Below the pieces are notes generated by a model. That model saw only the letters and a list, made by a program, of their open reading frames with translations. It was not told the DNA's origin and made no database searches. The translations under genes were made by a program, and so were the position numbers. This document shows, piece by piece, positions 15,895-26,175 of a stretch of 51,885 nt of DNA; within the stretch, counting starts at the first letter, position 1, and each line of letters starts with the position of its first letter. The stretch is from Mustelus asterias (Eukaryota), in NCBI RefSeq assembly GCF_964213995.1, contig NW_027591117.1:62001-113885 (forward strand). Reading direction: 5' to 3'.

Positions 15895-15934
15895 AGCGCC
15901 CTCTGCTGATCACTAACCGGAACTCCCAGTCTGG
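15895..15934 (-). promoter_or_regulatory. CTCF-like element 3' of the V2 RSS (equivalents: V3 19023-19062, V5 25535-25574)
   Basis: TCAGCAGAGGGCGCT (V3: CCAGCAGGGTGCGCG) begins 25 bp after the nonamer in all three. Confidence 0.6.
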
Positions 15935-15972
15935 GGTTTTTGTGCGGGGTTCGCTCCATCTGTACCAGTGTG
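15935..15972 (-). other. RSS of V2 (22-nt spacer)
   Basis: CACACTG (15972-15966), 22 nt, ACAAAAACC (15943-15935). Confidence 0.9.
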
Positions 15973-16514
15973 GGCTCCATGGCACAGAAATACACGGCGC
16001 TGTCGGACAGAACAGCTCTGGCGATATTTAAAGGAACAGTATTGTTTCCTTTGTGTAAAGCAGCCGAGAATCTATCTGAGAAATCCGGAGACTTATCAGT
16101 ATTGCCCGAGCCATATATCATCATCAAATATCTCAGAGCTTGCCCGGGATACTGGATGTACCAGAACACAGCTCGAAAAGCAGCTGTCGAGCTTTTACAG
16201 TCCAGTGTTACGTTCTGTCCTTCCAGAACCGATAATTCAGATCGATCTTGAAACACTGAATCTTCAGCATTTCCCCCTGTAACAAAACACAGAACACACT
16301 CAATATCTGGGAGGGAAGAGAGCCCATGGGACAGACACTGATCGTTTAAACATTGACTCAAAAAAGAAAATGCTCGAAATTTTCAGTAGATCTGACAACA
16401 TCTGTGAGAGGCGAACAGAGAGAATGTTTCAAGTCAGGATGACACTTTGTCAGAGTTTATTGACTCACCGGGCAGCAAGACCATTATTATCAGCAAACAA
16501 AATAAGGAGCACAT
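15973..16514 (-). CDS. TRAV: TCR alpha/delta V segment V2 (leader 16514-16469, V exon 16276-15973)
   Basis: Leader MCSLFCLLIIMVLLP G|gtgagt; acceptor ttacag|. V exon GNAEDSVFQDRSELSVLEGQNVTLDC...WYIQYPGQ...DSAVYFCAMEP is open. Confidence 0.92.
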
Positions 16515-18199
16515 GGTGTCTGGTTTCGGGTTCGGCAGAAATGAAGCAGTATTTGAAATGTGTTGACATTTCTGTTCTGATATTCAAGCGGAAATTCACA
16601 TCAGCGGAAACGTAATTTACTCAGAAATTATGGGGCGTTTCCCAGCGACAGGATTGGCCGCTTTCTCAGGATTGATGATCGTCGGGCATCAATCAGCGTT
16701 CGCTCGACTAATAAGTTCTGAGTTTCTCTTTCTCCCTGTCTTTCTCGGGTTCTCCGGCTCTCTCTCCGTCTGTGGCCTGTCTATCTCGCTCTGTTATTCC
16801 GCCTCTGTTTGTCTCGCCCCCATTGCTCTGCTTCTGACCGTCTCTGTCTTCGCACTGGCTCTCCGTTCTTATCTTTCTCCCCTTCTCCCTAAAATTCAGA
16901 GTTCAGACAATCCGATTTCCCTCACTCTCCTATTTCAATGAATCCACTAAGTTACTCATTCTTTTGGTGCAACAAATGTAGAAAACGTTAATAACCAGAA
17001 GTTACGAGGTAACATTATGATGGAAATATTTAAATGTAAATACTAAAGAATATAGGAAATGAATGTGAATCCAGGGTCATATTTACATCTTGTGTTGTTA
17101 TTTTAGAAAAGGCATCTTATCGGAATCTTGAGGGCTTCATATTGTTTAGAATGAGTTTTATAACCACTATTAATTAAATAAAGCGAATCGCCAGCAATTA
17201 AAATAACGATGTTATTATCTCTCATGTATACGTTCAACTGTGTTCAATTGCATTGGAATAGTAAAAGGATGAACAAGAATAATGCAACATAATCACCAGT
17301 AGTAACGACCTTCTGTAATTTGAGAATTCGATGATTTTCCAGGAAATGACCAGTTACCTCAGATTGCCGCCAGATGGCGGTGCCTCACCATGTTTGTGTG
17401 TTTACTGCAGCGGGTCCGGGAAGCATAACTCGGCGGTTATGTTGTTGATCTGGTTTCCTAGGGCGTCCAGAAGCTCTCGGAAATAATCCTGTCGGTATCA
17501 TGTACTATGTTATATTATGTTGTGTTAAGGAATGAAGATGAACGAATGGAAAGACAGTGGGTGAACTCGAGGCCGAGACCGTGATAGAAGTCAAGGCACA
17601 GATTAGGAGGAACAGATGGAGTTACAGGGATATAAACACGAGGATCTTCATTATCTTCATTCCTTAGCTTGAAGCTTTCTGTGTTGCTGCATTTATTCCC
17701 CTCACGGGATCAACATCTAAATCCACTGTTGTACAAATCGCGTATTGTTTTATTTACAATCGCAACCCCCTGAAATCTACCGCGGAGGACGAAGAGTTCA
17801 GCGTCACCAGGTCACGCACAATGAGATTAGTGTTCTTGAGAAACCGTCACAATAAATAACATTCAATCTGAGCGTGTGAGGCCGATCAAATAAAACCGCA
17901 GACAGCTGAGGACTTTGGATCAGCATTCGATGGAGTTTAGAGAGATGAAGGGGGAATCTCATTGAAAAATACAGCAGACTGAAAATCCTGGACAGAGTGG
18001 ATGTGGAGAAGATATTTCCATTAGTAGGAGAATCTAGCACACGGCACACAACCCCAGAATAGAGGGACGACACTAGAGAACCGATTTGACTTTAATGTCT
18101 CTTTCCCAGGTGACTGTTTGTGTGCCAGGCAACCATCTTATGTGTACCCATCTGTATATGGGTACACATAAGATGGGACTTAATAGACATTCAACCCCC

Positions 18200-22761: not shown

Positions 22762-24952
22762 TCACGCCTGTTTTCAGTTGCTGCAGCAATCCTGCCTCGT
22801 ACATCTCCTTTAAACCTCGCCCCTCACACCTTAAACCTGTGCCCCCTAGTAATTGGCTCTTCCACCCTGGGAAAAAGCTTCTGACTATCCACTCTGTCCA
22901 TGCCCCTCATAATCTTGTAGACTTCTATCAGGTCTCCCCTCAAACCTCCGTCGATCCAGTGAGAACAAACCAAGTATTTTTCAATGAGATTCCCCCTTCA
23001 TCTCTCTAAACTCCATCGAATGCAGATCCAAAGTCCTCAGCTGTCTGCGGTTTTATTTGATCGGCCTCACACGCTCAGATTGAATGTTATTTATTTTTTG
23101 TGACGGTTTCTCAAGAACACTAATCTCATTGTGCGTGACCTGGTGACGCTGAACTCTTCGTCCTCCGCGGTAGATTTCAGAGGGTTGCGATTGTAAATAA
23201 AACAATACGCGATTTGTACAACAGTGGATTTAGATGTTGATCCCGTGAGGGGAATAAATGCAGCAACACAGAAAGCTTCAAGCTGAGGGATGAAGATAAA
23301 CAAAGAACAAAGAACAGAGAACAGTACAGCACAGGAAACAGGCCCTTCGGCCCTCCAAGCCTGTGCCGCTCATTGGTCCAACTAGACGAATGGAAAGACA
23401 GTGGGTGAATTCGAGACCGTGATAGAAGTCAAGGCACAGATTAGGAGGAACAGATGGAGTTACAGGGATATAAACACGAGGAAAGGGAATGAGAGAAATG
23501 TGCGAGAGGCAAGGAGATAAATAGAGGGACAGACAGTAAGATAAATGAGGGAGAGACGGAGACAGGAAGGGAAATAGATGAAGGTTCGGTGAAGGAACTG
23601 TGAAGGGAGCAGTTGCAGATTTATGGAGACAGTACAGACGAAAGCATAAAGAGAGAACAAAGATGTGCGGGTTCGGTTGATTGGCCACGCTAAAAATTGC
23701 CCTTAGTGTCCTGAGATGTGTAGGTTAGAGGGATTAGCGGGTAAATGTGTAGGGATATGGGGGTAGAGCCTGGGTGGGATTGTGGTCGGTGCAGACTCGA
23801 TGGGCCGAATGGCCTTTCTCTGCACTGTAGGGTTTCTATGATTTCTCCATCTGTCCCTCCTAATCTGTGCCTTGACTTCTATCACGGCCTCGGCCTCGAG
23901 TTCACCCACTGTCTTTCCATTCCTTTACCTTCATTCCTTAACACAACATAATATAACATAGTACATGATACCGACAGGATTATTTCCGAGAGCCTCTGGA
24001 CGCCTTGGGAAACCAGACCAGCAGCAATACCGCCGAGTTATGCTTCCCGGACCCGCTGCAGTAAACACACAAACATGGTGAGGCACCGCCATCTGGCGGC
24101 AATCTGAGGTAACTGGTCATTTCCTGCAAAATCATCGAATTCTCAAATTACAGAAGGTCGTTACTACTGGTGATTATGTTGCATTATTCTTGTTCATCCT
24201 TTTACTATTCCAATGCAATTGAACACAGTTGAACGTATACATGAGAGATAATAACATCGTTATTTTAATTGCTGGCGATTCGCTTTATTCAATAAATAGT
24301 GGTTATAAAACTCATTCTAAACAATATGAAGCCCTCAAGATTCCGATAAGATGCCTTTTCTAAAATAACAACACAAGATGTAAATATGACCCTGGATTCA
24401 CATTCATTTCCTATATTCTTTAGTTATTTACATTTAAATATTTCCATCATAATGTTACCTCGTAACTTCTGGTTATTAACGTTTTCTACATTTGTTGCAC
24501 CAAAAGAATGAGTAACTTAGTGGATTCATTGAAATAGGAGAGTGAGGGAAATCGGATTGTCTGAACTCTGAATTTTAGGGAGAAGGGGAGAAAGATAAGA
24601 ATGTAGAGCCAGTGCGAAGACAGAGACGGTCAGAAGCAGAGCAATGGGGGCGAGACAAACAGAGGCGGAATGACAGAGCGAGATAGACAGGCTCCAAACG
24701 AAGAGAGAGCAGGGGAATCTGAGAAAGACAGGGAGAAAGAGAAACTCAGAACTTATTAGTCGAGCGAACGCTGATTGATGCCCGACGATCATCAATCCTG
24801 AGAAAGCGGCCAATCCTGTCGCTGGGAAACGCCCCATAATTTCAGAGTAAATTACGTTTCCGCTGATATGAATTTCCGCTTGAATATTAGAACAGAAATG
24901 TCAACACATTTCAAATACTGCTTCATTTCTGCCGAACCCTAAACCAGACACC

Positions 24953-25496
24953 ATGTGCTCCTTATTTTGGTTGCTGATAATAATGGTCTTGCTGCCCGGT
25001 GAGTCAATAAACTCTGACAAAGTGCCATCCTGACTTGAAACATTATCTCTGTTCTTCCTCTCACAGATGTTGTCAGATCTACTGAAAATTTCGAGCATTT
25101 TCTTTTTTTGAGTCAATGTTTAAACGATCAGTGTCTGTCCCATGGGCTCTCTTCCCTCCCAGATATTGAGTGTGTTCTGTGTTTTGTTACAGGGGGAAAT
25201 GCTGAAGATTCAGTGTTTCAAGATCGATCTGAATTATCGGTTCTGGAAGGACAGAACATAACACTGGACTGTAAAAGCTCGACAGCTGCTTTTCGAGCTG
25301 TGTTCTGGTACATCCAGTATCCCGGGCAAGCTCTGAGATATTTGATGAAGATATATAGCTCGGGCAATACTGATAAGTCTCCGGATTTCTCAGATAGATT
25401 CTCGGCTGCTTTGCACAAAGGAAACAATACTGTTCCTTTAAATATCGCCAGAGCTGTTCTGTCCGACAGCGCCGTGTATTTCTGTGCCATGGAGCC
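24953..25496 (+). CDS. TRAV: TCR alpha/delta V segment V5, near-identical inverted copy of V2 (leader 24953-24998, V exon 25193-25496)
   Basis: Leader MCSLFWLLIIMVLLP G|gtgagt. The 304-nt V exon differs from V2 at 4 positions by eye. Confidence 0.92.
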
Positions 25497-25534
25497 CACA
25501 CTGGTACAGATGTAGCGAACCCCGCACAAAAACC
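25497..25534 (+). other. RSS of V5 (22-nt spacer)
   Basis: CACACTG (25497-25503), 22 nt, ACAAAAACC (25526-25534). Confidence 0.9.
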
Positions 25535-26175
25535 CCGGACTGGGAGTTCCGGTTAGTGATCAGCAGAGGGCGCTCCCACACTGATAAACAGAAATAATTA
25601 TTTTGTCTCGACAGTGATAGTCACAGGGTCATAAACAAAATATCAAAACAAAACACAACACTCAACACGAACGGCTGAGCCACAGTTGAATTTTTAACTT
25701 GCTACTATACTAAAAATACATTTACAGTTCCTTAACTCACGCTTCAACCTTTGATGACATTTTCTTGCCTGTGTGAATTATTGTGCAGCACTTTCCCCAT
25801 CTTCACTCTCCTTTTCAAGGTCTCTTTGATCAAAGGGTCTATTTGATCAGAGTATTTTGCTGCCTAAGGGACAGCTTATATTGGCATATACATTTCGCAA
25901 GGTTATCATTGTGCTATTTAAAACAATCACTGAGAACAGGTTGCCATCAATGTTCATTCTCATTTTGAATGTCTGTCAAATGTTTTCTGACACAATTCAC
26001 AACCCAGTGTTTCTCTGTTTCAATAATCAGACCAGCGACTTCATTCCCACCCCTGGCCCCAACAATATAGCGATTTTCCTCACAAGCACACTGATTATAT
26101 CTCAGCTTGGGTTATTTCTGCTCACTGGAAGCCAGGTCTCCAGCTTCAGGGCTAAAAACACCACTGCGACACATG

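What the first reader, a model, noticed from the sequence alone, without database searches (positions are those of the whole stretch)
15895..25574. RSS-coupled CTCF-like elements at a fixed 25-bp distance in shark TCR V segments
Seen: after the nonamer, V2 reads CCAGACTGGGAGTTCCGGTTAGTGA-TCAGCAGAGGGCGCT (V5 nearly identical). V3, a very different V protein, reads CCACACTGGCAGTTCCAGTTAGTGC-CCAGCAGGGTGCGCG. The offset is the same 25 bp, and G(G/C)AGTTCC resembles the CTCF upstream motif. V1 and V4 lack it. Known: mouse proximal Igh VH genes have CTCF sites just downstream of the RSS that promote RAG-scanning capture, while mouse Tcra V CTCF sites are mainly promoter-linked. Inference: an Igh-like RSS-CBE design in a cartilaginous-fish TCR locus, suggesting an ancient loop-extrusion control of V choice. 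This is my best candidate for an undescribed system here.
Basis: partly seen in the sequence, partly recalled or inferred. Interest (0 to 1): 0.7.

Follow-up and report, generated by a model that had tools for sequence, protein, structure and literature searches.

The report
Borrowed CTCF site on shark V-genes
One clan of shark T-cell-receptor gene segments carries, at a fixed spot just behind its DNA-cutting signal, a conserved two-part match to the docking site of the genome-folding protein CTCF, which one family likely picked up from another by DNA exchange and which likely helps these segments get used, as such sites do at mammalian antibody genes; binding is untested.

Summary
V2, V3 and V5 carry a two-part CTCF-type motif at +8..+39 behind the nonamer; V1 and V4 do not. 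V2/V5 are one recent inverted duplicate. Genome-wide the cassette occurs 141 times; all 100 listed copies lie on TCR alpha/delta-type contigs. Among sampled intact V, 48 of 48 clan members have it and 0 of 59 others; IgM VH 0 of 30. It arose once. The V2 family is a mosaic that likely shares the exon end, RSS and flank with the V3 family through an old exchange, so V2/V3 agreement is homology, not convergence. The motif still changes about four times more slowly than the neighbouring sequence, which points to selection. Unlike Igh, V segments and motifs face both ways, so linear RAG scanning cannot be the general mechanism. A local anchor or accessibility role in diffusion-type joining is more likely, perhaps offsetting 22/24-bp spacers (47 of 48). 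Read-through peptides hint at a similar motif in percomorph fish. Binding and V usage are untested. The scan has noted this element many times on other DNA of this genome and in other cartilaginous fish; my searches found no paper on it.

The parts
12188..12460 (-). V1 exon, TCR alpha/delta-type V, family without the motif
   Evidence: translation; family 5
12149..12187 (-). V1 RSS, 23-bp spacer, no CTCF-type motif behind it
15973..16276 (-). V2 exon, open frame (leader 16469-16514); mosaic: 5' part related to a motif-less family, last 33 nt close to the V3 family
15935..15972 (-). V2 RSS, 22-bp spacer
15896..15927 (-). V2 two-part CTCF-type element: upstream motif 15919-15927, linker, core 15896-15909
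17367..17380 (+). second CTCF-like 14-mer about 850 bp upstream of the V2 leader, facing away from the gene
   Evidence: same 18-mer 7 times in the sample
19103..19406 (-). V3 exon, open frame (leader 19555-19600)
19063..19102 (-). V3 RSS, 24-bp spacer
19024..19055 (-). V3 two-part CTCF-type element: upstream motif 19047-19055, core 19024-19037 with a G-to-T departure in the G run
22434..22722 (+). V4 exon, family without the motif
22723..22761 (+). V4 RSS, 23-bp spacer, no motif behind it
24086..24099 (-). upstream CTCF-like 14-mer of V5 (duplicate of 17367-17380)
25193..25496 (+). V5 exon, inverted duplicate of V2 (leader 24953-24998)
25497..25534 (+). V5 RSS, 22-bp spacer
25542..25573 (+). 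V5 two-part CTCF-type element: upstream motif 25542-25550, core 25560-25573
23845..27183 (.). inverted duplication of 13756-17621 (two blocks, 96.5-97.4% identical) that makes V5 a copy of V2

Best explanation
The element is a single-origin, two-part CTCF-type motif that sits at +8..+39 behind the RSS of one clan of TCR alpha/delta V families, and it likely binds CTCF and stalls cohesin right beside the RSS, which would raise the contact time and accessibility of these V segments for diffusion-type joining to J in either orientation. Shown: motif, fixed position, clan restriction, slow change, mixed orientation, off-length spacers, mosaic V2 family. Inferred: an old exchange of the V 3' block carried the cassette between families; CTCF binding; the boost in use; that the boost offsets 22/24-bp spacers.
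For: Motif meets the published two-mismatch criterion (PMC6746451) and has an upstream motif 6 bp before the TGG-like triplet, a class with higher affinity (PMC12885311 passages). RSS followed by a forward core: 98 hits genome-wide, 93 in the clan; reverse core: 0. Intact V with a canonical-looking RSS: core within 2 mismatches in 48 of 48 clan members, 0 of 59 others; spacer not 23 in 47 of 48 versus 2 of 59. Parsimony changes per column on branches with functional descendants: upstream motif 0.56, core 0.43, against spacer 1.86, first 7 bases 2.43, next 31 bases 1.52 (binomial p 1.5e-9). Core lost in 11 of 38 pseudogene copies, 0 of 46 functional. Mosaic: the V2 family joins a motif-less family at 99/99 on the 5' exon, yet its last 33 nt are 88% like the V3 family against 42-58% upstream. 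In mouse, such sites rescue weak RSSs (PMC11153149) and a V-proximal site drives orientation-independent Trbv1 joining (PMC10772921).
Against: No binding, chromatin or repertoire data. The copies share one origin, so the counts are not independent; the spacer link is one clade with about three length changes, and one 23-bp member keeps the motif while a 24-bp sister family has lost it. The sample was enriched for the clan by targeted fetching. The linker, which CTCF should not read, is as conserved as the core (0.33 per column). The motif also changes more slowly than its flanks on pseudogene-only branches (p 0.0014), and a family with a deleted heptamer keeps the core in 21 of 22 copies, which a purely RSS-local role does not predict. 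The V3 core departs from consensus in the G run. The tree was built from the same columns that were counted. The AU test did not firmly reject one clade for all motif-bearing families on the 5' exon (p 0.053).
Confidence: 0.55

Rival explanations
1. The sites bind CTCF but matter as general loop anchors that fold a V domain of 15 Mb or more; lying next to an RSS is an accident of origin, and they spread by V duplication.
For: A family found by exon search, all with the heptamer deleted and about 27% diverged in the exon from functional relatives, keeps the core unchanged (0 of 13-14 differences to the two nearest relatives) and intact in 21 of 22 copies. 19 of 20 further cassettes checked lie behind decayed V (these were picked by the motif itself). 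V segments spread from 4.7 to 19.4 Mb of scaffold C71 around J at 18.4 Mb.
Against: The within-family test is weak: p 0.045 for substitutions, 0.19 with deletions counted. On pseudogene branches the core relaxes about as much as the heptamer. All 46 functional members keep it at the same offset.
Confidence: 0.2
2. The locus uses Igh-like linear RAG scanning, with these sites as scanning impediments.
For: Same strand relative to V and a fixed offset, as in Igh (PMC6746451). Two CTCF-like 14-mers face back from about 30 kb beyond the C-alpha-like exon.
Against: Clan V face both ways within contigs (C232: 5 plus, 6 minus; C71: 6 plus, 7 minus) and V also lie downstream of J-C; mouse and human VH sites are nearly all in one orientation. 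No motif within one mismatch was found in the 130 kb before the J array.
Confidence: 0.1
3. The motif has no function: a chance CTCF-like sequence hitch-hiked with a V 3' end and is homogenised by duplication and gene conversion.
For: Single origin, shared block beyond the motif, recent near-identical duplicates, chimeric V seen elsewhere in the locus.
Against: Conservation peaks on +8..+39 and drops on both sides across three diverged lineages (local alignments confined to +9..+64 and +10..+45; rates). Changes on functional branches mostly stay within the degenerate consensus. A forward motif image also follows the nonamer in percomorph V models.
Confidence: 0.1
4. The conserved block is read by another factor, for example Myb at the CNGTTR-like linker (consensus recalled, from no call), alone or alternating with CTCF.
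For: The linker +17..+22 has only 2 changes on functional branches against 9 on pseudogene branches.
Against: One functional subfamily has GTCA, which breaks the recalled consensus; the 14-base core and the upstream motif at canonical spacing need no second factor.
Confidence: 0.05

Closest known systems
RSS-associated CTCF sites of mouse D-proximal VH and human IGHV clans II/III (PMC6746451; state A of PMC4914699; VH5-2/VH2-2 sites as described in PMC11153149)
   Same: Motif within 2 mismatches of the mouse VH consensus, fixed short distance behind the nonamer, one strand relative to V, predicted by V-family descent, often lost in pseudogenes.
   Different: TCR alpha/delta locus of a cartilaginous fish; gap 23 bp by the paper's measure against 17-19 (human 19 or 48); carries the upstream zinc-finger 9-11 motif; linker sequence conserved; sites face both ways across the locus; likely moved between families by a 3' block exchange; no binding data.
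Mouse Tcra/Tcrd V-region CTCF sites (PMC5859386 Table 2; PMC7515734)
   Same: Same locus type; sites occur in both orientations; a CTCF site lies downstream of C-alpha.
   Different: Mouse sites are mostly upstream of V promoters or intergenic; here the dominant class is RSS-adjacent (66 of 112 sites within 1 mismatch in a 983-kb, clan-enriched sample).
Mouse Trbv1 CTCF site and Igk diffusion-type joining (PMC10772921, PMC11153149)
   Same: V-proximal CTCF sites that act as extrusion impediments in loci where V join by deletion or inversion.
   Different: PMC11153149 says none of 103 V-kappa has an RSS-proximal site and that diffusion needs strong RSSs; here RSS-proximal sites go with off-length spacers in a mixed-orientation locus. 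PMC5859386 lists only 2 Tcrb sites near an RSS.

Membership tests
RSS-associated CTCF site (Igh VH type) | core within 2 mismatches of the VH consensus | tested here: met
   48 of 48 intact clan V
RSS-associated CTCF site (Igh VH type) | fixed short distance behind the nonamer, one strand relative to V | tested here: met
   the gap is 23 bp rather than 17-19
RSS-associated CTCF site (Igh VH type) | presence follows V clan | tested here: met
   with a mosaic family as the exception to simple descent
RSS-associated CTCF site (Igh VH type) | kept in functional V, typically absent in non-functional V | tested here: inconclusive
   0 of 46 functional and 11 of 38 pseudogene copies lost it, from few events; a dead family keeps it in 21 of 22
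RSS-associated CTCF site (Igh VH type) | sequence between RSS and core not conserved, only its length | tested here: not met
   only +1..+7 vary freely; +8..+22 are conserved
RSS-associated CTCF site (Igh VH type) | nearly all sites in one orientation across the locus, facing the recombination centre | tested here: not met
   both orientations within contigs and on C71
RSS-associated CTCF site (Igh VH type) | bound by CTCF and cohesin in vivo | not testable with these tools
   no ChIP data reachable; shark CTCF has 11 zinc fingers and was mapped in two sharks according to PMC7471279
RSS-associated CTCF site (Igh VH type) | raises use of the adjacent V | not testable with these tools
   no repertoire data
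Two-part CTCF site (core plus upstream motif) | upstream motif ending in GTTCC-like bases, 5-6 bp before the TGG-like triplet and core | tested here: met
   V3 and V2 sequences against PMC12885311 passages; judged by eye, no weight matrix was available
TCR alpha/delta V segment | V domain with 23-type RSS, linked to J-alpha and C-alpha | tested here: inconclusive
   the window's contig is unplaced; same families lie on C71 with a J array and a C-alpha-like exon (exon named from recall); T8G9 signature of V-alpha ends (PMC10322711) present in V2, V3, V5; alpha versus delta use cannot be told
Transposon-spread CTCF site | many copies away from the host gene, within a repeat | tested here: not met
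   141 copies; the 100 listed are all on C71 or small TCR-type contigs, none on C1-C70; 19 of 20 checked follow a V remnant

The most novel reading that the evidence does not exclude
RSS-adjacent CTCF sites are an ancestral jawed-vertebrate device of TCR alpha/delta V segments, kept in sharks and some bony fish and lost in mammals' Tcra; the RSS-plus-site unit is a portable cassette that V families swap, and it makes weak, off-length RSSs usable in a mixed-orientation, diffusion-type locus, a combination not described in mouse.
Probability: 0.25. Interest if true: 0.75.

Novelty: new variant of a known kind. Interest (0 to 1): 0.5.

Why it matters
How V segments are chosen over megabases is known almost only from mouse, where RSS-adjacent CTCF sites go with linear scanning at Igh and strong RSSs go with diffusion at Igk. 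A shark TCR alpha/delta locus with RSS-adjacent sites, off-length spacers and V in both orientations would break that pairing and date CTCF control of V choice to early jawed vertebrates. It is directly testable: CTCF binding maps exist for two sharks (cited in PMC7471279), mouse RSS-associated sites are bound even in non-lymphoid cells (PMC6746451), and families with and without the site are interleaved in the same locus. [quoted passage not shown]

Tried and rejected
Expression and V usage: no RNA holder listed; not evidence either way. Metagenome scan for RSS plus motif: 0 hits. Word-index protein search with the V2 read-through frame: none of 10 candidates passed. Pfam PF09291 search for C-alpha rang nowhere, controls included; the exon was found by reading frames. 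The genome-wide count of 23-type RSS patterns (1,710, control 381) is too mixed with chance hits to serve as a denominator. Structure-database hits were mixed antibody and TCR chains and did not assign the chain. Independent convergent origin in V2 and V3: rejected, the block is homologous. Transposon origin: rejected. Recent conversion as the whole explanation: rejected, the block is only about 80% alike and conservation peaks on the motif. Selection on the motif beside dead RSSs: first count p 0.0003 included poorly aligned far flank; the tighter count gave 0.045 and 0.19, so only a hint. The 5 non-clan hits are a loose 11-mer at about +10 and have 3 mismatches to the 14-mer. No complex prediction was run: the question is protein on DNA.
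Full report
Observation. The window holds five V segments with leader, V exon and 23-type RSS: V1-V3 on the minus strand, V4 and V5 on the plus strand. The mouse VH motif of PMC6746451 matches the window three times at up to two mismatches, behind V2, V3 and V5; chance gives 0.39 and none of 100 shuffles reached three. V5 is a copy of V2 inside a 97.4% identical inverted duplication. Upstream of the core lies a GTTCC-ending motif six bases before the TGG-like triplet, the layout of two-part CTCF sites read by zinc fingers 9-11 (PMC12885311). 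This was judged by consensus; no weight matrix was available.

Setting. The window is G000:C1085:62001-113885. Relatives of V2 and V3 fill the 150 scored places of each search, on many small contigs and along the 20.4-Mb scaffold C71. C71 also carries about 35 J segments at 18.37-18.41 Mb, a C-alpha-like exon at 18.419 Mb (named from recall), IgM D-D-J-C clusters and a NAR-TCR-like cassette. That fits the linked Ig/TCR alpha-delta complex of elasmobranchs (PMC12227049), so a cartilaginous fish is inferred. The window's contig is unplaced, and alpha or delta use cannot be told.

Distribution. Nonamer plus strict core gave 50 genome-wide hits, 48 with the V2-family flank, control 0. A full RSS plus a looser forward core gave 98 hits, 93 in the clan; the reverse core gave 0. 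The cassette alone gave 141 hits; the 100 listed lie on C71 or small contigs, none on C1-C70. Of 20 further copies that I cut out, 19 follow a decayed clan V and one has foreign sequence upstream. From 983 kb of fetched DNA, enriched for the clan, 194 candidate V-RSS were called. After dropping broken frames, weak HMM scores, poor RSSs, the light-chain V and the NAR-TCR-like V, 107 remained: 48 clan members all with a core within two mismatches, 59 others with none. Spacers were 22 (10), 23 (1), 24 (37) in the clan and 23 (57), 24 (1), 25 (1) outside. Thirty IgM VH, of 40 scored hits, had no match better than five mismatches in the first 100 bases.

Origin. On the 5' part of the exon (40 rows, 240 columns) the V2 family groups with a motif-less family at 99/99, and the V3 family with two sisters at 98/98. 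V2 and V3 families are 42-58% alike over five windows and 88% over the last 33 coding bases, more than V3 with its own sister there (75%). An old exchange of the 3' block is the simplest reading. The direction is probably from the V3 side, since one sister family has the motif and the other a decayed homologue, but this is not shown, and the AU test against one clade for all motif-bearing families was borderline (p 0.053). Homology runs weakly to about +130-170, but local alignments between lineages centre on +9..+64 and +10..+47.

Selection. On 72 distinct blocks from 84 clan members, changes per column on branches with functional descendants were 0.56 (upstream motif), 0.33 (linker), 0.43 (core), against 1.86 (spacer), 2.43 (+1..+7), 1.52 (+40..+70) and 2.24 (far flank); binomial p 1.5e-9. 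The tree came from the same columns and the far flank aligns poorly, so the ratio is approximate. On pseudogene-only branches the motif was still slower (p 0.0014), and the contrast between branch classes was not significant (Fisher p 0.07). All 46 functional members keep the core; 11 of 38 pseudogene copies lost it, through a few deletions and substitutions. Against a purely local role, a family of 22 copies found by exon search, all lacking the heptamer, keeps the core in 21 and both parts in 19; the within-family test is weak (p 0.045, or 0.19 with deletions).

Other species. Contigs of four coded organisms cover the V2 flank. One contig of organism D spans it with six differences, none in the core or the upstream motif by the tables of both calls. 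The 80% likeness filter and unknown kinship limit this to showing presence. A Chiloscyllium gene model of a sister family reads through an SVP peptide like the upstream motif but a changed core. Following a lead from earlier scan notes, I looked for peptide images of the core in gene models that read through the RSS. In the first set 10 of 64 distinct tails had a forward image (0.32 expected); the pattern was widened after seeing these. In a hold-out set 5 of 78 did (0.04 expected); reverse images were 0 in both. Named carriers are Dissostichus, Scortum, Solea, Xiphophorus and Danionella; the five hold-out hits are all notothenioids with one flank type, the cyprinid-rich rest had none, and many tails are spliced and uninformative. 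Offsets differ (about 6 to 34 bases) and no homology to the shark flank is shown. This is indirect.

Mechanism. In mouse, RSS-associated sites impede scanning and lift weak VH RSSs far above their own strength (PMC11153149), follow V clans (PMC4914699), and nearly all face one way (PMC6746451). Scanning cannot make inversional joins, whereas a V-proximal site at Trbv1 supports orientation-independent joining (PMC10772921). Here clan V face both ways (C232 5 plus and 6 minus; C71 6 plus and 7 minus, of which only one is intact), and V also lie beyond J-C. I therefore favour CTCF binding that stalls cohesin beside the RSS and lengthens contact with the J centre in a diffusion-type locus (0.55), possibly offsetting off-length spacers. 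That off-length spacers weaken an RSS rests on my own knowledge. Two identical CTCF-like 14-mers face back from about 30 kb beyond C-alpha and could be partners, or repeats. Rivals: general architectural anchors (0.2), linear scanning (0.1), neutral hitch-hiking (0.1), another factor (0.05).

Comparison and novelty. It works like a VH RSS-associated CTCF site in motif, position and clan pattern, but fails two features (uniform orientation, free spacer sequence), and binding is untested, so I file it as a variant, not a member. Mouse Tcra/d sites are mostly promoter-side or intergenic (PMC5859386). Eight library searches showed no paper on RSS-adjacent CTCF sites in fish TCR loci; most subscription journals are outside the library. 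What I saw: PMC6746451, parts 1-3 of 8 of the text; passages only of PMC5859386, PMC12885311, PMC10772921, PMC13433984, PMC10322711, PMC11153149, PMC4914699, PMC5931798, PMC12227049, PMC7471279, PMC7515734; no supplements, so species tables such as Table S3 of PMC6746451 were not seen. The primary VH81X work and the shark CTCF mapping are known to me only through these citing passages. The scan had noted the same element at least eight times in this genome and in other cartilaginous fish; these are unchecked notes and were used as leads.

Verdict. Real, conserved, single-origin element; mechanism inferred; interest 0.5.

Noticed in passing
G000:C71, 4.7-19.4 Mb (loci L021-L040, L091-L102, L131-L150): TCR alpha/delta-type V in both orientations spread over about 15 Mb on both sides of the J-C alpha block, interleaved with dozens of IgM clusters, a NAR-TCR-like cassette and zinc-finger genes; no C-delta or V was seen in the 130 kb before the first J.
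   Followed up: partly
window 17367-17380 and 24086-24099: V2-family genes have a second CTCF-like 14-mer about 850 bp upstream of the leader, facing away, so the gene is bracketed by divergent sites; the same 18-mer occurs 7 times in the sample.
   Followed up: partly
L097:6206-6230 (C420:53215) and C71:5436615: Both IgM clusters read have a CTCF-like motif about 380 bp after JH that faces back toward V-D-D-J; it could bound each cluster. The forward partner seen at C420:50669 was not found within 1.5 kb in 29 other clusters.
   Followed up: partly
G000:C89:1485852 (L083): A sister-family V whose flank is replaced by other sequence that holds a reverse-strand CTCF-like motif (3 mismatches) at about +29..+43.
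   Followed up: no
G000:C232:310614: A chimeric V pseudogene with the 5' part of one family and the 3' end and RSS of another, showing that 3' end swaps occur in this locus.
   Followed up: no
window 11493-11506: A CTCF-like 14-mer about 690 bp past the V1 RSS, on the strand opposite to V1; a like copy at C1085:27088.
   Followed up: no
window 2249-4591: Tandem array of about 50-52-bp units, one of which gave a loose RSS-like hit at 2893.
   Followed up: no
window about 9900-10460: GC-rich island whose reading frame resembles the island upstream of the truncated VH on C420 (L097 about 3800-4100).
   Followed up: no
G000:C8:50402777: In a light-chain cluster a 12-RSS and a 23-RSS abut head to head, like a germline signal joint left by an inversion.
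   Followed up: no
G000:C71, C87, C89, C104, C105 and others: One V of the motif-less family occurs with identical score on 13 contigs, and many small contigs repeat C71 content, which suggests large segmental duplications or unmerged haplotypes; copy counts may be inflated.
   Followed up: no
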